From a virus (Duplodnaviria; Caudoviricetes), in IMG/VR virus record IMGVR_UViG_3300032219_001741, positions 1-61,080 of that record: a DNA stretch of 61,080 nt, one strand, 5' to 3'. Position numbers and translations under genes: made by a program. Position 1 is the first letter of the stretch. Each line of letters begins with the position of its first letter. The notes beneath the pieces were generated by a model that saw only the letters and a list, made by a program, of their open reading frames with translations, was not told the DNA's origin and ran no database searches. Shown one piece after another: positions 13,320 to 30,611 of the stretch.

Positions 13320-16300
13320 TCACTTCTTGGCGCGTCGTTGAGCGATCTCGCGCCAGATTTCACGGACAGCGCGGACCCGCATCGCCTTCCATTCGGACTC
13401 CAATCGTTCAACGCTCGCGCGTTCTGGATCGGAAATGTCGCGCTTGAATCGGGCGATCTTGGCCGCCGAATCTTCGCCCTTATCACCTTTGATCCCCCGG
13501 AGTGGATTGCGGTCGTCGATCAAGTCAACCAGTTGCTTCGGTGTCGTGATCGCGTTGGGAGTTTTGCCGTCCGCTGCGCCGACTTCCGCAAGATTGGTCA
13601 GCTCACGTTCGACGGCATTTACGTCGTTGTTCAGGATCGCTTGATAGACTCGTTGCCGAGCCCGGCCCAGCTTTGTAGTGTCGCCCCCAGGATCCGCGCC
13701 AAGGCTGTAGCCGTTGCGTTCTGCCCAGCGGTTCGCGATGCGCCAGACTTGCGGGCTCGCGTTGCGGAAGTCCAAGCCGGTCCAAGCCCGGACGACATCG
13801 CCCCCGGCAGTGCGGCGCTCCATGGTGGATCGTTGCACGTCACCGCCCCCGGTGGTGCCCTCGACGGTCTTTTGCACCACGCCGTAGGATGCGGCAAAGG
13901 CCGGAGCCCAGATGTCGCGCATCTTGTTTCCGATCGCCATAGCCTTTTCTCCGGCGTCCATCTCCGAATGCACCAGAGGCTTGTCGGTGAATGGGTCGCG
14001 GTTCAGCATGAGGTTCAACGCCGTGCTGGCAACCGGGGAGGAAAACCATGAGCGTCCAAGCTGGACGGCGAATCCGGGATCCTCGCGCCCTTCCTCGACC
14101 CGCATCCCGAGGGAGTTGGCGTAGGGGTTAATGTTCGTCATATCGAACATCATCGGGCGGCCTTGATCGTCGAGCCCTGGCATGAGGGCGGAGAACTGCA
14201 ACGTGATGGGACCAATCTTGCGGCGTCCGCGCATCTCCGCGTAGATCGCTTCCCGGGCCTTGCGCTTGCGTTCGTCGTCATCGCCCGGGAGTCCGTAACC
14301 GAGGGCGGCCAACGAGTAGACCGTCACAAGACCAGGGATCGCCATCCACTTCGCAAGGGTGGCAGGGCGATACTGCATGGCGTTCAGCAAGATCCGACCG
14401 CTTTCGTAGTAAAACGACAAGAACGGCATGATGGTCCGCTTCAGGTTGCGCACCGTGGCGGTCTTCGGGACGTTGTCGTAGTAGGGGAACCACAGGCGGA
14501 CGTGCGCGGCGGCTTCCTTTGGACTCATGCCCGACTGCTTCGCCTTCGCGTAGGCGGCGGTTTTGAAGAGGGCGTCCTCGATCTCGTAGGCTTTGTTGGC
14601 CCCGGCCCGGAGCGACATCATCATCGCCTTAAACTTGCCGGGCGGCTTCTCCGGCAGGGTCATTTGAGCGATGGCGGCGGCGAATTCCTTGCTTCCGATG
14701 TCCGAACCGAGAACACCCTCGCGGAAGAGTTCCGCAAACGTCACTCCGCCCGAAGCCTTGCGGCCCACGACAAGGTTCCAGGCGTGTCCGTAGAATTGAA
14801 GGTTTGCAGGAGAAACGGGTGAGCAATACCCGAAATCAGCGAACATGAAGTTGCCGATGAGGTTGCGCCCGTGAGTGGCCGGGTTCCAACTCGTGTGCGT
14901 TTCCTTCCAAAGTCCAAGCATCGCGTCATAGATCTTGAGGGCATCGTTCGGGGCTCCGGCGATTTCGTAGAGGTCGCGAGCAAGGTTTTCCTCAACCCAT
15001 CGGCCGGAGATTTTGCCGAGGGCTTTGTTGTCGGCCATCCGCACGAATCCGGGACGTTCGGAATCACTGACGAGATTCGGATCGGCTTCCAACGTCGCAA
15101 ACATTTTGGCCATCGCGAGATCGTGGCCCATGGTGGCGATGATCTTTCCGACGACGTAGCCGGGGTCGCGGATCAGCCCCATGGCCGTCAGCTCGCCCTC
15201 GGTCTTCGGAACGGTCAGGTTGAACTGATCCGCCGTCTTCGCCATCACGTTGCGGATCTGCGAGCGGAGTTGCGGCGACACGGAATCGGCGTTGCGGTTC
15301 TCGATCACCGACACCGGGAGACGCATTTCCTTGGCCGTCAACCGCTCAACGTATCCGTGAAACCATTCGTCCCGGTCCTCGGCGGAATCGAAGCGCCACG
15401 CGCCATCCGCGCCGTGAGCAATTGGGCGAGGGTTCGCACCCCGGGTGGTGACGGCCCACGCATCCGAAAGCCGGGCTTTCGTGTAGCTGAGATCCATTTT
15501 GCCCTTGAGCATCTTCCGATCCCGCGCTTTCTCGATCGCGTTGCCGATCACCCCGGAAAGCCCGTATCGGTTCTGCTCGTGTTCCAGGTAGAATCGGCGG
15601 AGGTAGGTGCCAAATCCCTTTGCGACCGTCTCCGCTTTGAGTAGACCGGCGGCCACCGCGCGTTCGCCGAGAATGTCGATCGTTTCCCGCGCGGCTTCCA
15701 CGACAGGGCGAAGGGCGGGCGGCAGGGTGTTGAGGTTGGCCTCGCCTCCCAACACCTTCCACATCGCGGCCTGCATCACCGGGTCTTTGGCGTATTGCTT
15801 TGGCACCGTGAGCCCAAGCAAGTCCGAGGTTCCACCATCGCGGAGGATGCGCAGGAACTCGCCGCCTTCTTGACCGGCCAAGGACTTTGCAATGTCGGCC
15901 TCGCGTTGCGCCATGACCGCCTCGTGAGCCACGCCCCAATGCGGAATGAGTTGGGACGGTGCGGCATCCATCACCATCTTGGCGACCGGCCCAAGGACCG
16001 GGATGGCCTCAACAATGGCACTGGCGGCGGATGCGGCCTTCTTGGTCACACGCATCTTGCCCGCCCGGTTGAGCCCCTTGGCGGCAGCCTGGACGCCCTT
16101 TCCGAGTAGGGTGTTAAGCTTCCTTTCGACTCCGATGCCACCCATGCCGAGGGCTTTGGCTGGCGCGGGGTTTGTGGCCGGGACGGCACTGCTGGCAAAG
16201 AGCATCCCCGGCACTTCCTCGCGCAACCCGCTCGGGAATAGCGCCTCGCCTCCGGTGCGCGGCCTGGATGGCTGGCGTTCGCCTGTTTGCTTGGCGTCCT

Positions 16301-17552
16301 TCTTGTCTTCGGTGACTGGTGGACGCGGCTTCAAGGTGATCCGCACCGTCTCGTTGATGGCATTGCGCTCGCCCGGGGCGATCAACCAGTCGATCCCGTC
16401 CATCTCCGGCTTGGCGAATGCGGTGGGGTTGAGTTGGGCCGCCCGGTCTACCAGGGCTTGCGCTTCGGGGAACTTCTGCAACGTGGACTCGTAGATCGAA
16501 ACCGTGCCTTTCCCGGCCACTGGATTCTTGGCAAGCCACTTGCCAAAGTCCTGCATTCGGCGCCCGCGAAGGCTCATCTTGACCATCATCGACTCCGCTT
16601 CGCTGAGCGATGCGGGGATCAATTCCGTGAGGTCGGCGACGGTTCGCGCGGCGTCGGCCTTGACGAAAAACGAGGCCGCCATGGCTCCGGCGGTGGTCTT
16701 GAGGAAGTTGCGGCGGGTGGTGCCTTCCGGCACGGCAGCGGAGGCAAAAAGCATCTGACTTTCACCCTTGATAGAATCCGCCATCTCCGGGGTGATGGTC
16801 ACGCGCCAGATAGGGGTAGATTTCGCCTTCCACTTGCGAGCGGCAGCGATGTCATTTTCCGAAGACTCGTACCACGCTTGACTCAGTTCGGAATCCGTCG
16901 CCTCTGGGTGCTGCTCCTTATACCATTCTTTGAATTCGTTCGCTCCAACGTGCACTTCTTTGCCTGCAAGGTTGCCCTTTTCAACCTTCGCGCCCCACTG
17001 CTTGACGTATTTCTGGACTTCGGATGGGAGGATCTTGTCGTAGAATCCCTTCATGCCTTCGCCGCCAACTTTAAGCCCGTCGCCCTCAAAAACGGCAGCG
17101 GTGTCGTTTTCCACGGTCAGGATTTTCTCCGCCATGTCTTTGCCGATGATTTCATCCAACCGCTTGTTAGCGAATTGCCCGTATTTTACGGTCCCTCCGT
17201 CAACCTCTAAGTCGATGACGCTACCGGATTTCTCGAAAATTCGCACGTCGTGGAACGTGTCATCCCTCGCCTCAACCTCGATGCTGTCCACGCTCTTGGC
17301 CAAGTCGTAGCGGTCGTTCTGCGTCTCGCCCGAGGTCCATCCGACCCATGATTGACCGGAGTTCACCGCGTCGCGCAAGGCTCGCTTGAACATCGCCAAA
17401 CCCCATGCAGACGAGTTGCGGAACGGCATATCCGGAGTTTTCGGTGGGCCGATGTATTTGACCGCAAGGTCCGTGTCATTGACCAAGGCTGCCCGAAACT
17501 CATCATACGAGAGTTTCTTTCCGTTCAAAAAGTAGGTGCAGTCAGGACGCAT
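13320..17552 (-). CDS. Large virion/ejection-type polyvalent protein, C-terminal part
   Basis: 1410 aa; PDMPF..W...FKRALRDA and GMKGFYDKILP segments; helical C-terminal region (WNPATHGRN, MPFLSFY, NRDPFTDKPL) typical of podovirus internal proteins. Confidence 0.8.
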   Translation of the reverse strand: MRPDCTYFLNGKKLSYDEFRAALVNDTDLAVKYIGPPKTPDMPFRNSSAWGLAMFKRALRDAVNSGQSWVGWTSGETQNDRYDLAKSVDSIEVEARDDTFHDVRIFEKSGSVIDLEVDGGTVKYGQFANKRLDEIIGKDMAEKILTVENDTAAVFEGDGLKVGGEGMKGFYDKILPSEVQKYVKQWGAKVEKGNLAGKEVHVGANEFKEWYKEQHPEATDSELSQAWYESSENDIAAARKWKAKSTPIWRVTITPEMADSIKGESQMLFASAAVPEGTTRRNFLKTTAGAMAASFFVKADAARTVADLTELIPASLSEAESMMVKMSLRGRRMQDFGKWLAKNPVAGKGTVSIYESTLQKFPEAQALVDRAAQLNPTAFAKPEMDGIDWLIAPGERNAINETVRITLKPRPPVTEDKKDAKQTGERQPSRPRTGGEALFPSGLREEVPGMLFASSAVPATNPAPAKALGMGGIGVERKLNTLLGKGVQAAAKGLNRAGKMRVTKKAASAASAIVEAIPVLGPVAKMVMDAAPSQLIPHWGVAHEAVMAQREADIAKSLAGQEGGEFLRILRDGGTSDLLGLTVPKQYAKDPVMQAAMWKVLGGEANLNTLPPALRPVVEAARETIDILGERAVAAGLLKAETVAKGFGTYLRRFYLEHEQNRYGLSGVIGNAIEKARDRKMLKGKMDLSYTKARLSDAWAVTTRGANPRPIAHGADGAWRFDSAEDRDEWFHGYVERLTAKEMRLPVSVIENRNADSVSPQLRSQIRNVMAKTADQFNLTVPKTEGELTAMGLIRDPGYVVGKIIATMGHDLAMAKMFATLEADPNLVSDSERPGFVRMADNKALGKISGRWVEENLARDLYEIAGAPNDALKIYDAMLGLWKETHTSWNPATHGRNLIGNFMFADFGYCSPVSPANLQFYGHAWNLVVGRKASGGVTFAELFREGVLGSDIGSKEFAAAIAQMTLPEKPPGKFKAMMMSLRAGANKAYEIEDALFKTAAYAKAKQSGMSPKEAAAHVRLWFPYYDNVPKTATVRNLKRTIMPFLSFYYESGRILLNAMQYRPATLAKWMAIPGLVTVYSLAALGYGLPGDDDERKRKAREAIYAEMRGRRKIGPITLQFSALMPGLDDQGRPMMFDMTNINPYANSLGMRVEEGREDPGFAVQLGRSWFSSPVASTALNLMLNRDPFTDKPLVHSEMDAGEKAMAIGNKMRDIWAPAFAASYGVVQKTVEGTTGGGDVQRSTMERRTAGGDVVRAWTGLDFRNASPQVWRIANRWAERNGYSLGADPGGDTTKLGRARQRVYQAILNNDVNAVERELTNLAEVGAADGKTPNAITTPKQLVDLIDDRNPLRGIKGDKGEDSAAKIARFKRDISDPERASVERLESEWKAMRVRAVREIWREIAQRRAKK

Positions 17553-18219
17553 GAAATTCCAACGTGGTGAGATTTTTCCGAAACCCGGTAAGCATATTGT
17601 AGAGGCTTTTCATGGGGATGCCGCGATCTTCCGCCGCAGCCGTAACAGTTGCGAATTCCTGCCCCGTCGCCGAATCGACAACCCTCCTTGCGGAAGGATG
17701 TCGCGCACCCGTCCGACCAAACATCGGGTTTCGTTCTCCGAATTTGGTTTGCCTGATGCGATCCTTCCACCACTCGGGGAGCGTATCGCCTTTCTGGATT
17801 GATGTTGCGATTCCCTTTTTCGCTGCGGAGATTTTGCGCCCGTGCTCAGCGGTAAGTTTCCGCCCCTTTGATTGAGCACTGCGCTTTGCCCGTTCCTCGG
17901 GGCTAAAATAGCCACGCGAACGCCCGTCACCGCCATCTGTCTGATTCACCAGAGAACCGCCGTCTTCCTTGCGTCCGTAAAGGGAAATGAAAAACCGCTC
18001 CTTTTTCGCCGCTTCATCATCCGTTCGGCAAAGACAGAGGATTTCCACAGTGTGTCCGTGCTTTGCGACAACGGCATGCCACCACTTGTTGACCCGGTCC
18101 ATTGTAAATGCCCTTTCGAAATCAGGGCGACGTTTCAACCGGTTCGCTCCCTTTCCGACGTAAAACACTTCGCCCGTGTCATTGCGGACGTGCCTGTAGA
18201 CGTAAAATCGTTCATTCAT
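17542..18219 (-). CDS. GIY-YIG homing endonuclease with NUMOD3 and NUMOD1-like DNA-binding motifs
   Basis: YVY...FYVGKG, LVNQTDGGDG, KGRKLTAEHGRKIS, GERNPMFGR, TGQEFATVTAAA; more AT-rich than flanks. Confidence 0.88.
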   Translation of the reverse strand: MNERFYVYRHVRNDTGEVFYVGKGANRLKRRPDFERAFTMDRVNKWWHAVVAKHGHTVEILCLCRTDDEAAKKERFFISLYGRKEDGGSLVNQTDGGDGRSRGYFSPEERAKRSAQSKGRKLTAEHGRKISAAKKGIATSIQKGDTLPEWWKDRIRQTKFGERNPMFGRTGARHPSARRVVDSATGQEFATVTAAAEDRGIPMKSLYNMLTGFRKNLTTLEFHAS

Positions 18220-21200
18220 GGGCAGACGACTTTGAGGATTCCGTCCTTTTTCATCCTAGTGACAACGGACACCCAAGCATCGTCTAATTGCGCCATCATT
18301 CCAGCGGCGTCTTTGCGAATTGCTTGCCCCCTGTCGCTCTGGATTTCTTCGATGAACAACCCGCCCTCGCGTTCGTTGGTCCGCATGTGGGCCACGTAGT
18401 TCGCGACGTCCGGGAAGTGGGAGGACGTGTATCCCTCGTATCCGGTGGACACATCAGATAGGTCACGATACTGCACCCGCAACGCGCGTTTCTGGTCCTC
18501 GGTGAGATTCGGATTCTCCAACTCCTTGCGGATGCTTTCCATTTTCGCATACCGCTCGGCATCGGGCTTCCCGCCCATCGCCAGGACCACCTCGCGGTAG
18601 TTGCTCCCGCCCGGGATCTGGTATTGCGCGAACTTGGTGGCGTTTTCGCCAGACTCTTGAAGCCCGCGATAATCGGAGATCGTTTCCTGAACCAAGTCGG
18701 CGATTCGCGCGTTCCGTCCAAGGTAAGTATTTTCGTAACGCGATGCGGCTTGGACAACGGAGTCGGATTCGGTTGCGTTGAATCCATCCTCGCGCAAAGC
18801 TCGCCGCAGCCTTTCGGCAGATTGCGGAGCCGTCATCCGATCACGTCCGCCCATCGCCACCTCTTCAAACCGCACACGCCCCGAGTCCCGCAGATGCGCC
18901 AAGAGCGCCTCGCGCGGCACCTTCCCGCCGTTTTCCTTCGCGATCCGGTCAATGGCAGGGATCACGCCGCTCCACTTGATCTCGTCGGCCTTGACTCCGC
19001 TGCCAGGGTTCTGAATCAGCGCCTTGACCTGCTCCGGTGACGCAAAGCGCCCGGTGATTTTCGACCCGATGACCTGTTCCAGTTGGCTGAAGAATCCGGC
19101 CTCACGTTCGGCGCGAAACGACGGCACCGCCCCGCTAGCCTTGAGGATGTCGGAGGATTCGCCCGCGCTCATCTGCGGGCCGGAAGCGCCAAACATCACG
19201 ATCGCGTCCTCGGGTGCGATGTTCTCGGAGCTGTAGGGCGCAACCGCTTTGCGTTGCTCCGGGGTCATGGATTGGCGGGCTTGCACGTCGCGGGCCTCGA
19301 TCTCGCCTGCGTTACGACGATAGGCGCCCATTCGTTGCGCCGGGGTTGCTTGATCGGCTCGCGCCCGCGCCTCTGCGCTTGCTTGACGCAACGCATTCAA
19401 CTCGTCAACACCGTCTTGGTATCGCGACTCTAAACCGGATCGAGCTTGCGGGTCGCTCGTCTCCGTGATCTGTCGGTTGAGCGCCAGCAACGAGATCTTG
19501 ATCGCGTCCATCTTGGCGCGGTTTTGCGCCGCCACCTGATCGGCGGCGTAATCCATGCCATCCAGAGATGTGCCTACGGCGAATCCTTCGCGGTCTTGAA
19601 TCCAATGCTGAAGCTCATGAAGTAGGTCCGACAACAGCCTGTAGGACACTGGATTATTCAGTTCGATCTCATTGAGGCTGGGCCGGAACACGCCTCCGCC
19701 AAGAGGCTGTGGGCGCCATTTTACTGTGATGTCCCGCGCCTCCGGGTAGGCGTCGAAGAACGCCGGGTGGTCAAGGAAGTCGCCTAGCGCCCTTGTCAAC
19801 TCACCTTGGCGAAGTTCGCTTTGCGTCATGGCTCGCGTCTCAGCTCCGTCATCTGGGATCTCAAACCGCATCTTGCCGTCATACGGCCCCGGGAACCAAC
19901 CCGTCACCGCGCGAATCTCCTCCGAGGACTTGCCCGCCGCCGCCATCGCCTTCGCGGATTGCAACGCGTCAGCCATAAACTGCGGCATTTGCGCCGAGGC
20001 TCCTGCGTAGCTGTATCGGATGTCGTCGCTCGCAGGGTTGAAGCGCTTGTCTAGGGGGACTCCCGTGAACGGATCAGCCAGTTTGATCTGTGACGGGTCA
20101 ATCACGATCAGGGATTTCGTGTTGCCCGTCGCCAAACTTTCGCCTGGCTCAATCTGCGTGATCGAATCGAATCCGGCGTTGCGGAGGGCGGCAACGAAAT
20201 CATCGTCATCAACAAGGCTTTGCGTTGCTTCGTAAGTGTCCGCCTTTTCTTCGCCGGTCAAGATCGAACGCACGGAATCCCATACCGTGATAGGGTCGAA
20301 ATCTAGGACGATGCCGTTGCGTTGAAGGAATCGCATGAACGCAGTCTGCGTCGATTTCACGCCAAGCCTGTCGAGTCGTAGCGGGTTCTTGGCCGCGATG
20401 AATGTCTCGTAAACCTGCCCGTCAGCTCCGTGAAACTGCTTGGCGAACGCTTCGGCGAATCGCTTTTCAGTGGCGAAGAATGTTGGGGTGCTGAATTCTT
20501 CGATCCCCTTCGCGCCGCCATGCCATCCCTTTTCGGTGAATCCAGCATCCCGGGCGGCTTTGCGGGTGATGCGCTGAGCTTCGCGGGTCTCGGCCTCGGT
20601 GATCGTTCCGGCGTTGAATTTTGCCTCAAGCTCCGCGTGGCGTGCGGCGTCCTTTGACATCCCGCCCGCCTTGCTGCTGTATCGGGCATCTCCGTTCATC
20701 GGGCCGCCCCTAAAGCCCCGAAGTCCTGAGGCGAAGATGTCCCACGCTTGCGCCTTGGCCTCGGCTGGGGTTAGCGCAACCCCGAAGAGTTTTTTCACAG
20801 CTCGGGTCACGAGGTTGACCAGTCGCTCCCATGCGGTGCGCGTGTCAGGCCCGGACTTTGCAATCATGTTTTCGAACGCAAGAACGGCGCGTTCTTCGGA
20901 TGCGTATTCGCCCATTGGCCCGTCGTAGAAGTCGCGGATGATCTCATCGACTCGGGCGCGTTCTGCCGGGGTCAGAAGCTCCGTGAATCGATCGAACGCC
21001 TTGCGGGCTCCGGGCTTGCGCCAGACGTAATGCCCGATCTCGTGGGCTACCGTGAGTGGAGCTTGGCGGGCTTGATTCGTTGCGGCATTAACGAGGATCT
21101 CGTTGCCCTGGATCATTCCAAGCCACGTCTCGTTTGGGAGATCGACGACGCGGACGCCAGAGGGGATGCTTCCGCCGAATCGGTTTTTAAGGGCTTCGCG

Positions 21201-24200
21201 GACAGCCTCGACGTTGCCTCGGAGGACAGGGGCCGGGGCGGCGCTGTATCGGATGTCGTTGGATTGCGGGTTGAATCGCTCGCTGAGGCGGGTTCCTGTG
21301 AATGGCTCCGCGCTTTTGATCTGGTTGGAATTGAATACCGCGTAATGGTCGGCAGGCACATTGAACAATCCAATCGCGTCGTCAAGGTTGCGGAAAATGA
21401 CGCCGTCATAACCTTGGCGCCTTGCGTCCTTCAATAGTCCGGTCAACCCCTCATCAATATCGCCGTCCTCAGTCAATTCTTGCGGACTTTTGCCCTCGGC
21501 GTCAAACTCCATGAATCGGCCGGAAAGATACCCGGCGAACACGTCGGCATTCTTGCGGAGTTCAAGGCGTGACGCCGCTGTGTCCAACGCCTCGGCTTTG
21601 CGGACTGCTTCATCGTAACCGTCCCAGTCGCCGCGTCGCTCGGCTTTTTCAGCCTCCCGCATCGCCTCTTTGATTGGGCCATCTTCCGCCGAATACACCG
21701 CGTAAGCCCGCGCTGTGCGCTCGTCGGTTGTAAAGAAGAACGCAATCTTGGCGCTGCGAGCCTCTGTGTTTTTGCCTCCGAAACGCTTGTCGAACTTGTT
21801 GAACGATGCGCTCCGCCCGTGAAATACCCTTGGCGAGTCAAAGCCAGCATTCCGCGCGGCACTTGCAACCAATGCCTCGGCTTCAGTGGTTTCCGCCTCA
21901 GTGATCGTCCCGTTGTTGAACTTCGACTCAAGCACCGCGTGCCGTGCGTAATTCACCGGCACCGCCCCGCTAGCCTTCAGAATCACCGGCTCCTCATCAT
22001 TGGCGTCCTTGTAAACCCGATCACCATCCGGCCCTCGAACAACGCCGATGAAATCCCCCGTAGCCTTGAGGTCCGTGGCGTCAATCGTGCCCCCAAACAT
22101 CCCCGCGAGGTCGATCGTCCCTTGCCGAATCCCGTCCGCACCTCCCGAGGTCACCACGATCTGCGAGGCTTGCGTCATCTCCGGCATCGCCAGCGCCCAG
22201 GCGCGGGAGCGAACTGGAATCTGAACGGGCGCCATCGCCTCGCCATCAACGTCTCGGACCATCACCGTCGCCCCGGTGCGTCCTTCAGGGACTCGGCCCA
22301 CAAACATCGGGACCACTTCCTGATCTCCGGGCTCGCCGATCATCGCCAGTGCATCGCCGTAGATGCCCTGCCAGGTCGGGATTGCGTCACGGTGGACGAC
22401 GCCGATCATCGCGCCCATGTCGGGGATGTCCGCCAAAGCAACGGTGCGGGGCGGCTCCTTGGAGGGAGATTCCATCTTGCGGCGGACCTCGGCGATCTTG
22501 GCTGCAATCTTGCCTCCAACGGCTTTGCGAGTGCGTTCCTTTGGTGGAGTCGGGACCGGCGTGTTCGTGATGAGTCCTAGGGTGTCGCGAACTGTGGCGT
22601 CGATCCGGCGTTGGCGTTCGCGCTGGTATCGGTTCGGTTCTTCGGGGGTGGCTCCCGATGCGCGGAGGATGGAATCAGATTCAGGGTTGAATCGCTCGCT
22701 GAGAGGGATGACGCGGCCCGTTTCGTCGTAGGTAACAGCGTGATTTTCTTTTTGCAATGCCACCCATCCTGATGATTGGTCGTGCTTGATTCCAAGTCGA
22801 TCCTCAATCGTCTTGATGACGGTCGCGAAATCTGCGCGGATTGTGGATGAATCCCAGTCGCCCGATTGCGGAAGAATGCGGGCTGCGACATCGCCGTCAG
22901 CATTGGTGAAAATGTCAATGTCTGAGTTGCCTGCGCGACCCTCATCCATGTCACTTCGCTGGAAGCCGCCCCCCTGCTTCTGTTGATGCCCGGATGCGCG
23001 AACGGTGATGGTTTTATCGTCGTCGTTGGGAGCGTATCCTGTGAAATACACCGACCCTTGGCTTGATCCTCGATATGAAAAATCAACGGGAAACCCTGCC
23101 AGCAACGCCTGAACGGCGTCGGCTACAGGGTATTTGTTTTTGCGTTGAACCAACGCTTCTGCCTTATTGTCAACGGCTTCCTGCGCCTCTTCGACAGCGC
23201 GCTCCAACTCAAGAATTGTATCCTCTTCCCATCCGCCCCCCTCGTAGTGACGGCGGATGACCCTTTCCTTTTCATCGGACGAGAGGTCAATCCATTCGGG
23301 ATCGTCTCCGCGCACGTCAGCATCCCACATCTCAGCAAACGACTCACCATCCATCGTCTCTGCATCATCTGGGTTCGCTAGAGCTTTAGCGAATGCGCCT
23401 TCAAACCGCGCCATGTCAGCCTTTGCTGCATCTAGGTCTTTCTGTGAAACCTCCTTTTTGGCGTCGTTGAGAGAGTAAAGTTTCACCCCTGCCGCTTTCG
23501 CTGCCGACTCGAAAACCTTACGCGCCTTTGTGGTATTGCCGCCACCAACCGCCGCGAGATACTCCGCGTCCATCTTCGGTGTCACAGGCACAGCACCCGA
23601 AGCCTTCAGGATCTCATTCGTGGTCGCTGGCGATACGCCCTCAATCGCCTTGCGTGTGGCGGCGTCCGTCACATTGATCCCCTCCGCACGCACCAGCAAC
23701 GCAATGCGCTTGGCGTGGTCTCCGATCAACTGGCGGGCGTCTTCGGCGTTATTCACCCCGTTGATGCCCTGCATCGTGTTCGTGCCAGTGAAAAGCCGGA
23801 TGCCGCCTAGGGTCTTGCCGCTGGCGGGTCCGAGCAGGAGCCAGTAGTCGTGAGTGGCGAGGTAGTGGCGGGCTTGCCCTTCGCCGTTGGTGCACCAGCT
23901 ATCGGGGCTGAGGGCCATCAGGGACTTGATGTGGTCCGGCGGCACATCCGTGATTTCCTCAATCGTGAGCGTTCCGAGTTCAGCTTCAATCGCCGAAGAT
24001 CGTGCGTCATTCTTCGCTTCCTGCTTAGACGGGAACGTGTCGTCAATCCTGAATCGGTCATACATGTTTGGCCGATGCACCCATTGGCCTTTGTATTCCG
24101 CGACGTAATCCTCAGCATCTACGCGAGTCTCGAAAACCTTAACGACCTCGGTCATGTCTGGATCGGCGGACGATTCCACCGCAAACCCGATGTAGTCTTC

Positions 24201-27200
24201 ATCGTATTCGGACAACGGGTAATCGTTAATGATTTCCAAAAGGCTTGACGCCTCCACGATTTCGATGTCGCTAAAATCAAGGTATCCCTCAATTGCGTCC
24301 TTGGCAGCATTCTCGGCATCAACACGGGTCGCCGCTTTGATGGTGCTCCCATCCTCAAACGTAACCATGACAGCGGATTGAGGCGATCCTCCTCCGGCTG
24401 CACCGCCCGGCACGAACACCCACCGATGCCCCTCGCCCGCCTTGATCGTGCGCAAGCCCTTCGTGGCCGCCTTGGCGCGTTCCTCGTCGTAGAGGAAGAG
24501 CGGGTCGCCCGCTTCGCCGGAGCGGATCAACTCAAGGGTGGATTCCAAGACCCTAAGCGTGATCTCCCTCGGGCGGCCCAGCCCGTAATTGTCACGGGAA
24601 CCAATGGAGTTTTCCAAGATGTCCCATGCAAGGTTTGCCGCATACGGGTCCGAAGCGTAGGAGTCGGGACCGGCGACCAAGAGATTCTTCCATGTCTCCG
24701 CCGCCTCTCTCCGGGGGCGGTTGACGTTCTGCTCCACCCACGCGGACCAGCCTGCGTCGGTCGATCGTTTCGGCATCGCGTTTTCAGCCTCGTCGAGATA
24801 CGATTGCCGCTCGTAGGCATTCATCTCGCGCCACTCACGCCCGTTATCAGCGGCCGCCTTTCTAGCCGCAGCTTCCACGTAATTGGAGCTTTCTCCCGCT
24901 GAAAGCGTGGCCAGGGTGTCAAAGCCCTCCTCAATCCCATACTTCGCTTGCTTCTCCGCCGCCTTGCGAATCACCGGCTCCAGCCTGCGGATGGACTCCG
25001 ACTCAACCTGGAAACGGTTCGCGGAACGCCGCGCGAACTCCGCCTCGGCGAAAGCGTCAAGGTCCGCCTTTGTCTTGATCTCCTGCGTGTTGATCTTCCC
25101 GCGACGCCGCCCAAGGTAGGCGAAGGCGAACGGGTCGCTCTCTTGCGTGACTCCGAAGCGGCGCACCATGGATGATGGCACGGCGGCGGACGCCATCAAT
25201 AGTTCGTTCTCGGACGGCGTTACCGGGTCGGCTTGCGGCGCGGTGAAGGATTGCTCGGATGGGGTTGCGTCCTCATCTTCTACGAGATCGGAATGGCCTG
25301 CATCCACAAGCAGTTTGGACACATCGACCTCTGAGGCTCCCTTTAAGAATTGCGCCCATTGATCGAAATTCCCTCGCGCCATTCGCGCCCTGACGGCGGA
25401 CTCATTGCGGGGATCTCCCTCGGCTTCCCATTCCCTGACAATTTCATCAAAGACATCGACGCCCTTGCCGTAGCCGTAATAGCTTGAATCGCCAATGATG
25501 CCGAGCGCCGTCAGTAATTGATCGATATCGCTCAGCGGATCATCCGAATCGCGGATGTAGTCAACGAGGCTTGACGGAACCGCGCCGGATGCGTTGAGAG
25601 TCTCGTTCTGCCCGTCGTCCTTTGGCTTCGTCGCGGGCTTTGATCCCGTGGCCGCCTCGGTCTTCAGGTTGCGCAAAGCTTGCGCCGTGGCCGCCGCCAT
25701 AGCCTCCAACTCCGCCTTGAGTTCCGGGTTCGCGTCGCCGAGTTGCTTGATCGCCAGCTTGAGCCACTTACGCAGCTCGCGGAGGATCCTGCGCACCATT
25801 GAGGTCGCCTCCGCGTTGCCGATCACCGCCTCTGAAATCTGCCCCGCGAACTCCGCATCCTCGACCATCATGCGGATCATTTCCGCCCCGAGCACAAAGT
25901 CGGAAGCCTCCGCCGCCTCGGCCTTCATCGACCGGGACGAGAAATAGGCGTTGCGGACTAGGCGTTGCAGCTTCTTGCCCTCGCGGCTGTCGCCAAGGGC
26001 GGACCATACTCCGGCCACGTCCGCGTCGGAAAACGCACCTTCCCGCACCGCGTCCTTCATGGCGTGGTGGATCAGTTCGTGGCGAACCAAGGTTTCGGCT
26101 TGCTCTGGACTGTATCGCTCCAACGCCCGGCGGTTGACGACCAACTTCCCGCGAGCGTAGCCCATCGGCGATTCGCCTAGCTCGCTTTCTTTGGCGTCGC
26201 GGACACCGCCCGGGAACACGTCCACCAGCGCCGCCGCCTTCGGGGCGATGCGCTTCACGTAGTCGGTTGGGGTTTCGTCCTGCCCTGCCGATGTCCCGTT
26301 TGCTTCGGGCTTTTGTCCCCTTCGTGCCCCCTTCGTGCCCCCTTTGGCTTTGGCGTTGAGTTGCGCGACGACTGCCCCGGCTTCTGAGTATGTGCCTACG
26401 ATCAAGTCAGGCCGGACCTTGGCGATCTCCGCCTTGATCGTTGCGGCCTGATCGGCGTGAGCCTCATTGATCAGGATCGCCCCGAGACCCTCTAGATATT
26501 GGCCCTCCAGGTATTGCCCTGGTCGCGCCAAAAGCTGGAACGGTCCGTCACTGTATGCCGAACCGTTCGGCGTCGCTCCTGCGCTGCTTCCGCCCTTCTC
26601 GCTGACTAGAGGAGCAGTCTCAAGCATGAGTTCCCCGTTGCTGTATGGCTTGATCCTCGACGGGTCTAGCCCGTTGGTGATCATGTTGAGCAGATCAGCC
26701 AATCCTCCAGACAACGTCCCAGCCTTTGCCATCCCGTGGGCTTGGATGTCATGACCTCCATTGGCCCGAGCCTCGTCAAATCCACGCCTCGCGGATTCGT
26801 TTACGTTCGCGCCATCAAACCATTCGTCGTGACGTTCGGTTCGGTGTTGCTGATCCCATGCCGCCACTTCAGCAGGGACCCGATACGATCCCTTGTCGAA
26901 GGATGCCTTACCTCGTTCGCTTTGGGTTGTTCTTTGCGATGGATTGGCGAGTGCTTTGATTCGGGCTAAGGTGAGCCCTGGGAGTTTTGCGCGAACTTCT
27001 GCGGGGGTCGAACCGCTTTGCAACATAGCCACCGCTTCAATCTCCGCCGGACTTTGCGCGCCCCCTTTGTTTGAAGATGCAGGAACTTGTGCGGAAGTGC
27101 CTGCGGTTTCAGTGATCGGCGTATTCGTCGGAATCGTGACCCCGGCATCTTGGAAGAGGACGACACGCGCCGCCCGGCCTAGTCGTTGCTCCGATGGGAG

Positions 27201-30200
27201 GCTGACCGTCTGCCCGTCCGGCATCGTCGCCGTGTAGGTGAAGCCCTGCGCCGCCCCCTCACCCGAGGGAGCGGCGACTTCGGGTTGTTGTGTGCCCTGC
27301 GGTGCCATGCCTCCGCCGGATTGTTTGGCCGCCTTCGCGTCTTCGCGGGCTTGAGCTTGTTGGGTGGCTTCCACCTCACCCATCGGATTGATCGACTTCA
27401 GCGCCGCGCCCATCCCTGGCATCAGGGTTTCCGCGCGTTCGATTGCGAGGTCGGAAACGATCGGCGTTTTGCCGGGGCCTTCGGTGATTGCGGGGGCGGA
27501 TGTGCCTTCAAATTGCGCCTCGATCGCCGCTTGCTCTGCCGTGGAGGGCGTGTTCCCGGCCAAAACCTTTGCGATCCCCCGAACGAACAACGCGGATTGT
27601 TGGCTTGCGACGACTTCAGCGATGGCGTTTTCATCCCCGGAATCCCTGGCCGACAACAGCGCCCGATCGAATTCCTTCGGGTCCGTGGCTACAGCGATGT
27701 CGGCCATGGCTTTCGCCCGTTCTTGCGCCCGCGCGGTTCCTTGTTGAATCGCTTCCGTGACCGGGGCCAACACGTCGCTGTGGCGGTTCTGCTGTTGCGC
27801 CCCGGTGGTGAGTAGGTTGGCGGTGGCGAAATCCTTGGCCGCAGCCTGTGAAGGATCTCCAAAGTCTTTTACCAGCGCCTCGTATTGGGCCGGTTCAATC
27901 CCGGCGTGGGCTGCGAGGGCTTCAGGAGTCGTGACCGTGGCGGCGTTCTGCCATGCAACCTGAATCTTGCCTTGCGGCGTCGCGGTGTTGACGGGTTCGG
28001 AACTCAACGCCCCGCCAATGGCGCCGACACCGCCGCCCATAATCCCGCCCATTGCCGTGGCGTTGATGATGTCGCGCCGTCCCTCGGCGTCGATCGGGTT
28101 TTGACCGGCTCCGACACGTTCCAAGACGGTCTGCAACGCCTCGGTTCCGCCTTCCATGGCAACGCCTTGCGCCGCGCCGGTAGCTGCGCGAACCGCCCGG
28201 CCTGTTACGCCCTTCGGCATCTTCTTGCCTCCAAGGAGATCCAAGCCAAATTTGTCCGCCACGGATTCCAGCCCGCCCGCCGCGATGCCGGTTCCCCAGA
28301 CTCGCGCGAGTTCCCATCCGGTAAGTTCTCGACCTTCCTCTTTGGCCTTCTTGGCGGCCTCGCCGTAGATCGCGCCCAACTCCATCCCGAGGGCGTTGGT
28401 GAGGATTGCGGTATTCGACCCGATCGCTTTCGCGGCGGCTTGTTTTAGCGTTGCAGTTTGAGCGAGAGCTTTGACCTCCGCCTTCGCTGCCGTTTTGCCG
28501 AGCTGCTTCAGGGCCATCTTTTCGGCCTGACTGGCGATGGCTTCAGCCATGAACTTGCGGATGCCGGTCTTCACCGCACCTTTGGCGAACGCGCCGCCGA
28601 GGGCTCCACCAACCGCACCGACAGCCGTCCCTCCCCCAGGCTCCACCGCCGTCCCGGCCGCGCCACCGATCGCCCCACCCGCCGCAGATACGGCGATCGT
28701 TTCGAGAATCTGGCCGATGCCGTAGCCGACGGCGTATTCCAGGAAGTTCGCCATCGCGCCAAGATTGCCCTTGCTCGCCTTCGACCATGCCACCGTGACG
28801 TCGTCGTCTTCCCGGCTGATAGGAGCCATGCCTTGCTCGGCATCGAGGTATCCACGAAAACCCCAGTTGCGGAGCGTCTCCCCTTTGCCGACCGTCTTTT
28901 CCAGGGTGTCGCCGATCAAGGCCGCGACTCCAAAGCCAAGCTGCGGGAGCTGGCGGGTGGAGACTTCCGCGCCTCGGACCACGTCGCCCACGATCGGTGC
29001 CCGCTTGAGTTGCGCAAACCATCCCTTTCCTTCGACCGGTTCAGGCTTTGGCTTGAACGTTGCCGTGTCTACGTTGGCGAGATACAGGGCCGCCGCATCA
29101 TCGTAGCCAAGGGCCGGAGCGATTTTCGACAACTTGCCGGATGCCATCAGTTTCGCCGCCGCTTCCTCCGGGGTCTTCGCGTCCTTTTCAGCCGCCGCAA
29201 ACGCCTCTGCAACCAAAGGGCTAAGCCTCTCTTGCGTGGCGTCGTCCAGTTGCGTGTCGATGGCCGACATTGCCGCCGCAACCGCGTCGTTGGCCTCCTC
29301 TGGCAACATTTGATCGTTGGCCAGCTTTGCAATCACGTCGCGTTGCGTGGCTTGAAACTCTGCGAGCTGCGAGGCGCGGCGTTCTTGGATGCGCGAGGCG
29401 ATCACGCCCTCATCGCTCTGGTCCTCCTCTACGGGGACGGCGGGCGATGCGTTCAGCGGTTCCAATCCAGGGGTCTGAACTTCAGCCGGGGCGGCTCCCG
29501 GCGCGGGCTCCCCCGGCGTCGGGGCTTCCTGCGGGGCGTTCGAGAACGGTGTCGCCGCCGGTTGTTTTGCGGGAACGTCCTTTGGCAGTTTGCGCTCCAG
29601 CAACGCTTGCTGAATCGCGTCCTCGTCACGGATTGCGCCGTAGGTCCGGGCGAAACGGTTGGTTGCAAGATCGATCGCGTTGCGGCTCTCCACCTTGATC
29701 GCGTCCCGCTTCACCTTGGCCTCACGATATTGGTCGGAGGTCATCGGGCCGGAAACGGCGGTCTCGAACTCCTCCTCGGCGGCCAGGATCCGGGCTTGAT
29801 GTTCGGCGGTCGTCTGATCCACCTGCGCCTTGGCGGCTTCGGCCTTGGCGGAAAGCTCCGCACGTTTCGCGGCGAGTTCCTGAATCTCGCGATCTTGGCG
29901 CACTCGGTTTGCCTCGGCCACCACGGCGGAATCGGCTTTGTCGGCCCCACCCTTGAACGAAAACGCCTTGTCGTCGGCGGCCTGAGCGGCTTGCGCGGCC
30001 ACGTCCCGGGCTTGCTTGGTCGCCTGGACATACGCCTTGTCGGTGTCAGCGAGGCTTTCGATTGACTGCGGGTCTTCAGGATCAACTCCCAAATCCTTGC
30101 CGACTTGCTTCAGAATCGCGTCTGGCTCCTTGGCCATCCGCTTCGCGGCCTCGGCGTTGTAATCCAGTTCCCGAGACTTCGCGGCGCGTTGATTTGCAAT

Positions 30201-30611
30201 GAGCTGTTGACGCTCACGATCCTGTTCGGCGGCGATCTTTTCCGCATCAGCCCGAACCTTCTCGGGATCTTGCGGGACCACAAATGCAGGCTTGATCCGG
30301 GTCTCGCCGGTCGAATCCTGCCAGGTATCTTCCCCGGACAACATCGCCTGTTGCTTGGTCCGATCGTTGCGGGCTCCAAGGTCCGCCGCTTCTTGGTCCC
30401 GGCGTTGACGTTCGGCCAAAATCGCATCCTGGCGGGCCTTGCGGTCGGCGGCGGCGCGTTGCTGTTGGATCGTGTCGCGAATCCACGACCCGGTTTTCTC
30501 AGTGCGCTGGCGGTCGGCGGCGATCTTCTCTGTCTCCTGCCGCATGTCAACATTCACGGGGATGCTGCCGGACTGAAGACCGGAGCGGACTTTGTCAAAG
30601 GGGGATGCCAT
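18216..30611 (-). CDS. Giant polyvalent virion protein (DarB-like architecture): coiled-coil/Gly-rich N-terminus, zincin HExxH modules, two ART-PolyVal-like domains, LPD23
   Basis: 4131 aa; HELIH, HEIGH, HELQH; FHG..F..F/GYDG/QIKSA ART pattern twice; TGWF.G..DGKMRFEI.D LPD23 pattern. Confidence 0.85.
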   Translation of the reverse strand: MASPFDKVRSGLQSGSIPVNVDMRQETEKIAADRQRTEKTGSWIRDTIQQQRAAADRKARQDAILAERQRRDQEAADLGARNDRTKQQAMLSGEDTWQDSTGETRIKPAFVVPQDPEKVRADAEKIAAEQDRERQQLIANQRAAKSRELDYNAEAAKRMAKEPDAILKQVGKDLGVDPEDPQSIESLADTDKAYVQATKQARDVAAQAAQAADDKAFSFKGGADKADSAVVAEANRVRQDREIQELAAKRAELSAKAEAAKAQVDQTTAEHQARILAAEEEFETAVSGPMTSDQYREAKVKRDAIKVESRNAIDLATNRFARTYGAIRDEDAIQQALLERKLPKDVPAKQPAATPFSNAPQEAPTPGEPAPGAAPAEVQTPGLEPLNASPAVPVEEDQSDEGVIASRIQERRASQLAEFQATQRDVIAKLANDQMLPEEANDAVAAAMSAIDTQLDDATQERLSPLVAEAFAAAEKDAKTPEEAAAKLMASGKLSKIAPALGYDDAAALYLANVDTATFKPKPEPVEGKGWFAQLKRAPIVGDVVRGAEVSTRQLPQLGFGVAALIGDTLEKTVGKGETLRNWGFRGYLDAEQGMAPISREDDDVTVAWSKASKGNLGAMANFLEYAVGYGIGQILETIAVSAAGGAIGGAAGTAVEPGGGTAVGAVGGALGGAFAKGAVKTGIRKFMAEAIASQAEKMALKQLGKTAAKAEVKALAQTATLKQAAAKAIGSNTAILTNALGMELGAIYGEAAKKAKEEGRELTGWELARVWGTGIAAGGLESVADKFGLDLLGGKKMPKGVTGRAVRAATGAAQGVAMEGGTEALQTVLERVGAGQNPIDAEGRRDIINATAMGGIMGGGVGAIGGALSSEPVNTATPQGKIQVAWQNAATVTTPEALAAHAGIEPAQYEALVKDFGDPSQAAAKDFATANLLTTGAQQQNRHSDVLAPVTEAIQQGTARAQERAKAMADIAVATDPKEFDRALLSARDSGDENAIAEVVASQQSALFVRGIAKVLAGNTPSTAEQAAIEAQFEGTSAPAITEGPGKTPIVSDLAIERAETLMPGMGAALKSINPMGEVEATQQAQAREDAKAAKQSGGGMAPQGTQQPEVAAPSGEGAAQGFTYTATMPDGQTVSLPSEQRLGRAARVVLFQDAGVTIPTNTPITETAGTSAQVPASSNKGGAQSPAEIEAVAMLQSGSTPAEVRAKLPGLTLARIKALANPSQRTTQSERGKASFDKGSYRVPAEVAAWDQQHRTERHDEWFDGANVNESARRGFDEARANGGHDIQAHGMAKAGTLSGGLADLLNMITNGLDPSRIKPYSNGELMLETAPLVSEKGGSSAGATPNGSAYSDGPFQLLARPGQYLEGQYLEGLGAILINEAHADQAATIKAEIAKVRPDLIVGTYSEAGAVVAQLNAKAKGGTKGARRGQKPEANGTSAGQDETPTDYVKRIAPKAAALVDVFPGGVRDAKESELGESPMGYARGKLVVNRRALERYSPEQAETLVRHELIHHAMKDAVREGAFSDADVAGVWSALGDSREGKKLQRLVRNAYFSSRSMKAEAAEASDFVLGAEMIRMMVEDAEFAGQISEAVIGNAEATSMVRRILRELRKWLKLAIKQLGDANPELKAELEAMAAATAQALRNLKTEAATGSKPATKPKDDGQNETLNASGAVPSSLVDYIRDSDDPLSDIDQLLTALGIIGDSSYYGYGKGVDVFDEIVREWEAEGDPRNESAVRARMARGNFDQWAQFLKGASEVDVSKLLVDAGHSDLVEDEDATPSEQSFTAPQADPVTPSENELLMASAAVPSSMVRRFGVTQESDPFAFAYLGRRRGKINTQEIKTKADLDAFAEAEFARRSANRFQVESESIRRLEPVIRKAAEKQAKYGIEEGFDTLATLSAGESSNYVEAAARKAAADNGREWREMNAYERQSYLDEAENAMPKRSTDAGWSAWVEQNVNRPRREAAETWKNLLVAGPDSYASDPYAANLAWDILENSIGSRDNYGLGRPREITLRVLESTLELIRSGEAGDPLFLYDEERAKAATKGLRTIKAGEGHRWVFVPGGAAGGGSPQSAVMVTFEDGSTIKAATRVDAENAAKDAIEGYLDFSDIEIVEASSLLEIINDYPLSEYDEDYIGFAVESSADPDMTEVVKVFETRVDAEDYVAEYKGQWVHRPNMYDRFRIDDTFPSKQEAKNDARSSAIEAELGTLTIEEITDVPPDHIKSLMALSPDSWCTNGEGQARHYLATHDYWLLLGPASGKTLGGIRLFTGTNTMQGINGVNNAEDARQLIGDHAKRIALLVRAEGINVTDAATRKAIEGVSPATTNEILKASGAVPVTPKMDAEYLAAVGGGNTTKARKVFESAAKAAGVKLYSLNDAKKEVSQKDLDAAKADMARFEGAFAKALANPDDAETMDGESFAEMWDADVRGDDPEWIDLSSDEKERVIRRHYEGGGWEEDTILELERAVEEAQEAVDNKAEALVQRKNKYPVADAVQALLAGFPVDFSYRGSSQGSVYFTGYAPNDDDKTITVRASGHQQKQGGGFQRSDMDEGRAGNSDIDIFTNADGDVAARILPQSGDWDSSTIRADFATVIKTIEDRLGIKHDQSSGWVALQKENHAVTYDETGRVIPLSERFNPESDSILRASGATPEEPNRYQRERQRRIDATVRDTLGLITNTPVPTPPKERTRKAVGGKIAAKIAEVRRKMESPSKEPPRTVALADIPDMGAMIGVVHRDAIPTWQGIYGDALAMIGEPGDQEVVPMFVGRVPEGRTGATVMVRDVDGEAMAPVQIPVRSRAWALAMPEMTQASQIVVTSGGADGIRQGTIDLAGMFGGTIDATDLKATGDFIGVVRGPDGDRVYKDANDEEPVILKASGAVPVNYARHAVLESKFNNGTITEAETTEAEALVASAARNAGFDSPRVFHGRSASFNKFDKRFGGKNTEARSAKIAFFFTTDERTARAYAVYSAEDGPIKEAMREAEKAERRGDWDGYDEAVRKAEALDTAASRLELRKNADVFAGYLSGRFMEFDAEGKSPQELTEDGDIDEGLTGLLKDARRQGYDGVIFRNLDDAIGLFNVPADHYAVFNSNQIKSAEPFTGTRLSERFNPQSNDIRYSAAPAPVLRGNVEAVREALKNRFGGSIPSGVRVVDLPNETWLGMIQGNEILVNAATNQARQAPLTVAHEIGHYVWRKPGARKAFDRFTELLTPAERARVDEIIRDFYDGPMGEYASEERAVLAFENMIAKSGPDTRTAWERLVNLVTRAVKKLFGVALTPAEAKAQAWDIFASGLRGFRGGPMNGDARYSSKAGGMSKDAARHAELEAKFNAGTITEAETREAQRITRKAARDAGFTEKGWHGGAKGIEEFSTPTFFATEKRFAEAFAKQFHGADGQVYETFIAAKNPLRLDRLGVKSTQTAFMRFLQRNGIVLDFDPITVWDSVRSILTGEEKADTYEATQSLVDDDDFVAALRNAGFDSITQIEPGESLATGNTKSLIVIDPSQIKLADPFTGVPLDKRFNPASDDIRYSYAGASAQMPQFMADALQSAKAMAAAGKSSEEIRAVTGWFPGPYDGKMRFEIPDDGAETRAMTQSELRQGELTRALGDFLDHPAFFDAYPEARDITVKWRPQPLGGGVFRPSLNEIELNNPVSYRLLSDLLHELQHWIQDREGFAVGTSLDGMDYAADQVAAQNRAKMDAIKISLLALNRQITETSDPQARSGLESRYQDGVDELNALRQASAEARARADQATPAQRMGAYRRNAGEIEARDVQARQSMTPEQRKAVAPYSSENIAPEDAIVMFGASGPQMSAGESSDILKASGAVPSFRAEREAGFFSQLEQVIGSKITGRFASPEQVKALIQNPGSGVKADEIKWSGVIPAIDRIAKENGGKVPREALLAHLRDSGRVRFEEVAMGGRDRMTAPQSAERLRRALREDGFNATESDSVVQAASRYENTYLGRNARIADLVQETISDYRGLQESGENATKFAQYQIPGGSNYREVVLAMGGKPDAERYAKMESIRKELENPNLTEDQKRALRVQYRDLSDVSTGYEGYTSSHFPDVANYVAHMRTNEREGGLFIEEIQSDRGQAIRKDAAGMMAQLDDAWVSVVTRMKKDGILKVVCP

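What the first reader, a model, noticed from the sequence alone, without database searches (positions are those of the whole stretch)
17400..18340. A homing endonuclease splits a conserved domain into two ORFs, with Cys-bearing peptides at the new ends
Seen: the 4131-aa ORF stops soon after LFIEEIQSD, and the 1410-aa ORF resumes with PDMPF..W...FKRALRDA. From recall of related phage proteins these two motifs normally lie in one polypeptide. The GIY-YIG gene fills the whole gap and overlaps both neighbours, leaving no room for an intron core. The upstream half ends in an amphipathic helix plus KDGILKVVCP-stop; the downstream half begins MRPDCTYFLNGKKLSYDEFRAALV. Known: phage Aeh1 nrdA is split by free-standing mobE and the halves reassemble. 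Inference: the two ~30-35 aa terminal peptides form a docking module (beta-strand complementation, possibly a disulfide) that rejoins the halves without splicing, a third way for a homing endonuclease to be tolerated besides introns and inteins.
Basis: partly seen in the sequence, partly recalled or inferred. Interest (0 to 1): 0.85.

Follow-up and report, generated by a model that had tools for sequence, protein, structure and literature searches.

The report
Homing endonuclease splits phage polyvalent protein
A selfish endonuclease gene sits inside one domain of a giant phage protein and cuts it into two genes, and it appears to travel together with short cysteine-bearing end-pieces that may let the two halves find each other again.

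Summary
On the minus strand a 225-aa GIY-YIG/NUMOD3 homing endonuclease (HE, 17542-18219) lies between a 4131-aa ORF and a 1410-aa ORF, overlapping them by 4 and 11 nt. Together the two ORFs are one phage polyvalent protein. The HE interrupts one module of unknown function, bounded by two linker motifs. In 110 of 110 related loci holding both halves, the module is one uninterrupted frame.

It is not an intron (no Rfam match, no spare bases) and not an intein (stops in the host frame, ends too short).

New here: the split form is a lineage. At least five diverged loci or contigs, and 11 protein-cluster representatives, share the same arrangement. They have a conserved upstream tail (..RMKK.G.L.V.C.-stop) and a downstream head (M..C.Y...G...[ST][YH]DEF). 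The head was seen only at N-termini.

Split members keep all invariant core residues. They are polyphyletic on the core tree (AU p=0.0009), so HE plus tails behaves as a mobile cassette.

The concept has a published precedent (Aeh1 NrdA/mobE), so this is a new variant of a known kind.

The parts
18216..30611 (-). ORF A, 4131 aa: the upstream part of a phage polyvalent protein (ART-PolyVal x2, LPD23, seven L[KNMR]AS[GAP]A[VT]P linkers)
19122..19145 (-). Linker LKASGAVP (ORF A residues 3823-3830), the upstream boundary of the split module. Close relatives that lack the module break here.
18219..19121 (-). N-half of the split module (ORF A residues 3831-4131). It keeps 12 of 12 invariant residues (E, NY.E, H, H.R, E.QSD..Q).
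18219..18332 (-). Upstream tail, 38 aa after QSD: RGQAIRKDAAGMMAQLDDAWVSVVTRMKKDGILKVVCP. It replaces the near-invariant HQ.GRKKGY of unsplit relatives. The ..RMKK.G.L.V.C. motif is conserved in the other split loci.
17542..18219 (-). Free-standing GIY-YIG / NUMOD3 homing endonuclease, 225 aa, the only copy in the 61-kb genome
18216..18219 (-). ATGA overlap: ORF A stop and HE start
17542..17552 (-). 11-nt overlap ATGCGTCCTGA: ORF B start lies inside the HE 3' end. The same geometry is seen in L177.
17433..17552 (-). Downstream head, 40 aa: MRPDCTYFLNGKKLSYDEFRAALVNDTDLAVKYIGPPKTP. It is conserved at the N-terminus of 11 further cluster representatives and of L177, L179 and L259.
16752..17552 (-). 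C-half of the split module (ORF B residues 1-267). It keeps 7 of 7 invariant residues (P, W, R, G, G, YD).
16728..16751 (-). Linker LFASAAVP (ORF B residues 268-275), the downstream boundary of the module
13320..17552 (-). ORF B, 1410 aa: the downstream part of the polyvalent protein. In the relative P0050 its residues from about 276 on are fused into one 4551-aa polypeptide.

Best explanation
The window is a complete 61-kb phage genome. Its roughly 5,500-aa virion-associated polyvalent protein has been cut into two genes by a free-standing GIY-YIG homing endonuclease. The HE is inserted, in frame, into the variable spacer of one conserved module of unknown function. The insert is a cassette, not a bare HE. 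It consists of about 35 aa of upstream tail coding sequence, the HE ORF, and about 40 aa of downstream head coding sequence. The HE ORF supplies the start codon of ORF B, and its own start overlaps the ORF A stop. The cassette replaces the module's native spacer and the adjacent HQ.GRKKGY motif. It spreads among diverged versions of the module by homing or recombination through the conserved flanks. Shown here: the anatomy, the uninterrupted state of relatives, the recurrence and conservation of tail and head, the retention of core residues, and polyphyly on the core tree. Inferred: the three ORFs are translated from one message by coupling. The two halves then re-form the module without splicing, with the tail (a helix and a strand ending in Cys) and the head (a Cys, then hairpin and helix) packing together as the adaptor. 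This also keeps ORF B's 1,100-aa C-terminal part attached to ORF A.
For: The genome is complete with terminal repeats. Terminase and portal lie on the same strand. The ORFs and their overlaps are confirmed. Relatives are contiguous in 110 of 110 loci, and 146 further proteins carry the C-half internally. A relative, P0050, is one 4551-aa protein.

There is no Rfam match in 16500-19500. Four stops lie in the host frame across the HE.

The same tail-HE-head arrangement occurs elsewhere:
- A roughly 95%-identical variant from another sample has only an in-frame 6-nt indel.
- JGI and ENA contigs carry P0005/P0007 and P0049/P0051, with HEs 97% identical.
- P0006 and P0008 both list a longest contig of 3865 nt. 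The HE is 74% identical and the N-half 37%, yet the last 17 tail residues are identical.
- L177 has an HE 50% identical, with a tail BLASTP E-value of 1e-7.
- L179 has an HE 46% identical, and L259 shows the same arrangement.
- Eleven cluster representatives start at the split point with a homologous head.

The head motif was found only at N-termini among 201 proteins and all loci read in six frames.

Split members keep 12 of 12 N-half invariant residues (4 of 4 members) and 7 of 7 C-half invariants (11 of 13 members). All four lack the H..G..GY motif.

On the core tree, made without the head, split rows need 9-11 changes. Holding them as one clade is rejected (delta lnL 148, p-AU 0.0009).

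The window and P0051 share 44 of 45 head residues but only 107 of 228 core residues.

Tails and HE have lower GC than the flanks in both the window and L177.
Against: No direct evidence shows that the halves or the peptides bind, because neither fold tool ran. The nearest relatives (L036-L038, about 90% nucleotide identity, and P0050) lack the whole module, so it is dispensable and its loss of function would be tolerated. Four near-invariant residues next to the QSD motif are lost in every split member. That could mean impaired function rather than adaptation. Tail and head charges are not complementary (net +2 and +1), unlike Aeh1. No promoter-like site on the coding strand and no significant RNA structure were found at the junctions, so expression of the HE and ORF B by coupling is only inferred. 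The tree used 205 columns and quick methods, and I chose the unsplit rows. Recombination of cores under a fixed cassette would give the same pattern as cassette movement.
Confidence: 0.6

Rival explanations
1. The HE insertion simply broke a dispensable module. The halves do not reassemble, and the tail and head are conserved only because they hitch-hike with the HE as co-conversion tracts or overlap its expression signals.
For: The module is absent from the closest relatives. The near-invariant HQ.GRKKGY motif is lost in all split members. Tails share the HE's lower GC. The ORF B start codon lies inside the HE ORF.
Against: Split members as far apart as 41-52% identity still keep every invariant core residue in both halves. 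The diverged variant has only an in-frame indel. The last 17 tail residues are identical where the HE itself is 74% identical. ORF B also carries about 1,100 aa that relatives keep fused to the rest, so its separation should matter.
Confidence: 0.22
2. This is a fractured gene with a split intein. The end peptides are intein halves that trans-splice the two polypeptides, with the HE free-standing between them (the Dassa 2009 type).
For: An HE lies between the two halves, and Cys residues sit near both new ends. Such loci are known in phage metagenomes (PMC2677866, abstract only).
Against: Tail plus head total 38+40 aa, close to the 66-aa median spacer of unsplit relatives. That is far short of a HINT domain. 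Pfam finds no intein or Hint family in either ORF. The upstream Cys is followed by one residue and a stop, and the downstream Cys is not preceded by His-Asn. The tail end aligns with native sequence of unsplit relatives.
Confidence: 0.03
3. The HE sits in a self-splicing intron, or the ribosome bypasses or reads through it, so one polypeptide is made.
For: ORF A and ORF B are in the same frame in 4 of 4 loci with DNA.
Against: No Rfam family matches at E<=1. Every base between the halves is HE coding sequence. Four stops lie in the host frame. There is no significant RNA structure at the junctions.
Confidence: 0.02

Closest known systems
Phage Aeh1 nrdA-a / mobE / nrdA-b (Friedrich 2007, seen only as a citation; Crona 2011, PMC3045599, abstract, introduction and discussion read)
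   Same: A free-standing HE splits a normally contiguous gene between adjacent strands. The HE overlaps the downstream half. [quoted passage not shown] There is no RNA or protein splicing.
   Different: The HE is GIY-YIG rather than HNH (the HNH family of mobE is as stated in that paper's discussion). The host is a non-essential polyvalent-protein module, not RNR. The tails are not oppositely charged. The tail-HE-head unit recurs in several diverged loci and is polyphyletic on the host-domain tree, which was not reported for Aeh1 (a single case). Function is untested here.
T4 mobA in topoisomerase gene 39/60, and seg43(25) in gene 43 of Aeromonas phage 25 (PMC2988022, section 17 passages)
   Same: Genes split by an HE, whose products must reassemble.
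   Different: Those are essential replication enzymes. No conserved, portable tail pair was described in the passages I read.
Fractured genes with split inteins and a free-standing HE (PMC2677866, abstract)
   Same: The same gene order: half, HE, half, in phage metagenomes.
   Different: No intein halves are present here.
Phage polyvalent proteins (Iyer et al. 2017, PMC5512222; passages found by term search)
   Same: A giant multi-domain protein with ART-PolyVal and LPD domains, encoded near portal and terminase, and predicted to be packaged and injected.
   Different: That paper's main text has no occurrence of 'homing', 'intein' or 'GIY-YIG'. The split module has no Pfam family.

Membership tests
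Free-standing GIY-YIG homing endonuclease (Seg / I-TevI-like) | GIY-YIG catalytic domain | tested here: inconclusive
   Pfam GIY-YIG scores 16.7 bits, below the 22.6 cut-off. However, phrog_314 'homing endonuclease' matches at 3.9e-19. P0008, 74% identical, carries PF01541. Relatives in cultured phages are annotated Seg-like or putative HE. By eye the motifs YVY..FYVGKG, E and N are present; motif positions are recalled.
Free-standing GIY-YIG homing endonuclease (Seg / I-TevI-like) | DNA-binding extension (NUMOD3 or helix-turn-helix) | tested here: inconclusive
   NUMOD3 scores 20.3 bits against a cut-off of 20.4. Many relatives carry PF07460.
Free-standing GIY-YIG homing endonuclease (Seg / I-TevI-like) | Not embedded in an intron or intein | tested here: met
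Free-standing GIY-YIG homing endonuclease (Seg / I-TevI-like) | Site-specific cleavage and homing | not testable with these tools
   The only evidence is indirect: polyphyly of the split state on the core tree.
HE-split genes-in-pieces (Aeh1 NrdA type) | The host gene is contiguous in relatives | tested here: met
   110 of 110 loci; P0050
HE-split genes-in-pieces (Aeh1 NrdA type) | Tails are specific to the split form | tested here: met
   The head occurs only at N-termini. The tail replaces HQ.GRKKGY in 4 of 4 split N-halves.
HE-split genes-in-pieces (Aeh1 NrdA type) | The halves assemble into a functional product | not testable with these tools
   Complex prediction and structure prediction gave no result.
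Split-intein fractured gene | N- and C-intein halves (HINT blocks, terminal His-Asn followed by Cys/Ser/Thr) | tested here: not met
Group I/II intron with HE ORF | Ribozyme core flanking or overlapping the ORF | tested here: not met
   No Rfam match; no non-coding bases.
Phage polyvalent protein | Many effector or LPD domains in one polypeptide, in a virion gene context | tested here: met
   ART-PolyVal 1.9e-21 and LPD23 1.1e-13; portal and terminase; nine linkers.

The most novel reading that the evidence does not exclude
The tail-HE-head unit is a distinct class of self-neutralising mobile element. The homing endonuclease carries its own portable split-protein adaptor: a helix and strand ending in Cys, paired with a Cys-hairpin-helix. 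It can therefore invade a protein-coding domain without an intron or intein and leave it working. The conserved Cys pair would form a disulfide once the polyvalent protein is in the oxidising virion, tying the 4131-aa and 1410-aa chains together until injection.
Probability: 0.3. Interest if true: 0.8.

Novelty: new variant of a known kind. Interest (0 to 1): 0.62.

Why it matters
Crona et al. predicted that tail-mediated rescue of HE-split genes might be general but hard to find, because tails would differ from case to case. Here the same tail/head pair recurs with its HE across diverged phages and on different host-domain lineages. That gives a family, not a single case, in which to test whether such adaptors travel with the endonuclease. 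If the peptides do dock, they are also a compact natural split-protein tag. The case also shows that giant injected polyvalent proteins can be made from two genes.

Tried and rejected
**Fold tools**
There is no verdict.
The one accepted job, on the unsplit module A1, was interrupted.
- A read-through alignment with X at the stops (A7) was prepared but never folded.
- As a result, the fold of the module, its function and the tail-head packing all remain open.

**Module identity**
- There is no Pfam family.
- There is no PDB relative by sequence.
- The protein atlas gave only unnamed clusters below 0.9.

**RNA evidence**
- No RNA holder was listed.

**Searches that found nothing useful**
- Metagenome and IMG/VR scans with the HE alone gave only relatives at or below 46% identity. 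Apart from L179, none lies next to the module.
- The cultured-phage database has no split head.

**Ideas dropped**
- L178 has a ferritin gene between two polyvalent ORFs, and the downstream ORF starts with a head-like peptide. Its upstream tail has no detectable similarity to the window's tail. I therefore do not count it as a member or as evidence of a context-independent docking pair.
- My first idea was that the ends are just the two strands of an ancestral hairpin (KVVCP|DCTYF). It is only partly kept. MAFFT aligns the tail end to KDGLYRLVAP of the L057 group, but it does not place the head there.
Full report
**Anatomy**

The window is a whole virus record of 61,080 bp with direct terminal repeats. 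The minus strand carries three ORFs in a row:
- ORF A, 18216..30611, 4131 aa.
- A 225-aa ORF, 17542..18219.
- ORF B, 13320..17552, 1410 aa.

The middle ORF starts in the ATGA that ends ORF A. ORF B starts 11 nt before the middle ORF's stop (ATGCGTCCTGA). Terminase (3350-5167) and portal (6093-8399) lie on the same strand.

ORF A carries two ART-PolyVal stretches and LPD23. ORF A and ORF B together hold nine copies of a linker motif, L[KNMFR]AS[GASP]A[VIT]P. This is therefore a phage polyvalent protein in the sense of Iyer et al. 2017. In the passages I read, that paper says such phage proteins are likely packaged in the capsid (PMC5512222).

**The middle ORF is a homing endonuclease**

It matches phrog_314 'homing endonuclease' at 3.9e-19. 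Its Pfam GIY-YIG and NUMOD3 scores fall just under the cut-offs. Relatives at 45-74% identity carry PF01541 or PF07460. Relatives in cultured phages, at 40% identity or less, are annotated as Seg-like or putative homing endonucleases. It is the only copy in the genome.

**What is split**

The HE lies inside one module. The module is bounded by the linkers at ORF A residues 3823-3830 and ORF B residues 268-275.

I fetched related loci from IMG/VR with each half as query. I re-searched all 135 loci then in hand with both halves and the HE. Of these loci, 110 have the N-half reaching the QSD motif and the C-half starting by residue 60. In 110 of 110 the two halves are in one frame with no stop between them. 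None of the 135 has an HE match. The other 25 are contig ends, weak matches, or relatives that lack the module.

The spacer between QSD and the D of PDAPF is very variable. Its median is 66 aa and its range 12-130 (n=108). The window's 38+40 aa fall within this range.

Two records from the phage database also show both motifs in one protein.

The module has no Pfam family and no PDB relative by sequence.

**The module is a cassette**

Three contigs about 90% identical at the nucleotide level (L036-L038) jump from window position 19122 to 16745. They lack both halves and the HE.

P0050 belongs to ORF B's 90% cluster. It is one 4551-aa protein with a hybrid linker at that point. ORF B's last roughly 1,100 aa are therefore normally fused to the rest of the protein.

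P0005 has the N-half following a different upstream module.

**Not an intron or an intein**

- Rfam at E<=1 finds nothing in 16500-19500.
- There are no non-coding bases between the halves.
- ORF A and ORF B share a frame, but four stops lie in that frame across the HE.
- Tail plus head are far too short for intein halves and lack their end motifs. Pfam reports no Hint family.

**The split form is a lineage**

- Contigs from another sample of the same study cover 17304-18365 continuously. They have 57 differences and a 6-nt in-frame deletion, so a variant about 5% diverged has the same arrangement.
- A protein search with the last 60 aa of ORF A found P0005, with a tail 100% identical. It also found P0006, an 870-aa ENA protein ending in ..QSDRGQSIRKEINKARSVLDDKWVEVVTRMKKDGILKVVCP.
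- P0006's N-half is 37% identical to the window's overall, but its last 17 residues are identical.
- An HE 74% identical (P0008) lists the same longest-contig length as P0006, 3865 nt. That the two lie on the same contig is inferred, not seen.
- An exhaustive search with the first 100 aa of ORF B gave 1513 hits at E<=1e-3. Of the 150 listed, 11 representatives begin at the split point with a homologous head, at 41-52% identity.
- The head consensus is M.P[DNG]C.Y.[LI].GK..[ST][YH]DEF, with the Cys at 90% or more.
- Three more IMG/VR loci show the full arrangement in DNA: L177, L179 and L259.
- Their tails end ..IDRMKKDGLLTEVCK, ..IERMKKAGVLEVNCD and ..VERMKKAGVLEVVCD.
- Their heads start MGPNCTYTIDGKTYSHDEF, MACQYTYKGSTYE and MACRYTYQGKTYE.
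- In all four DNA cases the two halves share a frame.
- A motif scan of 201 proteins and of all loci in six frames found the head only at N-termini.

**Are the halves still under selection?**

All four split N-halves keep 12 of 12 invariant residues. Eleven of 13 split C-halves keep 7 of 7, and two differ at one column.

All four N-halves lack the near-invariant H..G..GY that follows QSD in unsplit relatives. The cassette has replaced that stretch.

One reading, which is inference only, is that this stretch or its DNA is the HE's target in unsplit alleles, and that its absence protects split alleles from being cut.

**Mobility**

I built a tree of the C-half core with the head removed. It has 165 rows, was made with FastTree, and leaves out P0003 because it is identical to the window. 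The split label needs 11 changes on this tree, at least 4 of them forced by starred branches.

I built a second tree with IQ-TREE (quick method) from 14 split rows and 42 unsplit rows that I chose as neighbours and representatives. P0087 was left out as identical to L177, long-branch rows were left out, and L179 was added. The split label needs 9 changes here. The AU test rejects a single split clade (delta lnL 148.4, p-AU 0.0009).

The window's core groups with the unsplit L056. P0051 has a head identical at 44 of 45 residues and an HE 97% identical, yet shares only 107 of 228 core residues with the window. It groups elsewhere.

Tails and HE have lower GC than the flanks in both the window and L177. 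The segments are short and lysine-rich, so this is weak evidence.

**Do the ends dock?**

Indirect support:
- Both peptides and both Cys residues are conserved across the lineage.
- The tail's last 10 aa align with an internal segment of the L057-group spacer.
- Many unsplit spacers look like a hairpin followed by a helix. One of them hits DUF2188.

Against:
- The charges of the two peptides are not complementary.
- The module is dispensable in close relatives.

**Known precedent**

Aeh1 nrdA split by mobE is the direct precedent. Crona et al. showed that tails 'inherited with the endonuclease' are essential, and proposed the mechanism as general (PMC3045599).

A review lists two further cases: mobA in T4 gene 39/60, and seg43(25) in gene 43 of Aeromonas phage 25 (PMC2988022).

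Fractured genes with split inteins are a different solution (PMC2677866, abstract only).

A full-text search for 'polyvalent protein' together with 'homing endonuclease' returned 4 papers. None has either term in its title or abstract, and I did not read them.

**Verdict**

This is a real and well-defined feature. It is a new variant of the HE-split 'genes-in-pieces' kind. Its added finding is that the tail-HE-head unit recurs and moves among module lineages. The docking mechanism remains a hypothesis.

Noticed in passing
window 13320-30611 (-): Nine linker motifs L[KNMFR]AS[GASP]A[VIT]P divide the polyvalent protein into modules. Close relatives (L036-L038, P0050, P0005) differ by whole modules, with breakpoints in these linkers. 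This suggests module shuffling by recombination at the linker-coding repeats. The linkers may also be protease sites.
   Followed up: partly
window 16671-16718 (-), ORF B residues 279-294: A twin-arginine-like signal (TRRNFLK followed by a hydrophobic stretch) lies directly after a linker inside the polyvalent protein. Pfam TAT_signal scores 17.9 bits, below the 22.7 cut-off. If the linker is cleaved, the next module would start with a Tat signal.
   Followed up: no
L178:3020-3508 and its flanks: In another polyvalent-protein locus, a ferritin-like gene (Pfam Ferritin, 4.3e-16) lies between two ORFs. The downstream ORF starts MANNCVYTIDGKKYSYEEFRAYL, a head-like peptide, but it is not followed by the module's C-half. 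The upstream ORF ends in ..NLIEKC, with no detectable similarity to the window's tail.
   Followed up: partly
window 16752-17432 compared with P0051 and L056: The C-half core is mosaic. Residues about 60-180 are 23-28 of 30 identical to the unsplit L056, while the N-half is only about 35% identical to it. The otherwise 94-98% identical relative P0051 has quite different variable sub-regions.
   Followed up: partly
proteins P0010-P0036: About 25 HE clusters (40-57% identical) share the C-terminus NML[TS]G.R.N.T.[LM].F[A]-stop. In L179 and L259 this ending is followed at once by the downstream half's ATG (TAATG in L179, the one junction I read). Many of these clusters may sit in the same junction, but their contigs could not be fetched.
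   Followed up: no
window 18216-30611 (-), ORF A residues 2928-3103 and a second stretch: There are two ART-PolyVal (ADP-ribosyltransferase) stretches, and an LPD23 domain at residues 3533-3591. Most of the 4131 aa has no family match.
   Followed up: no
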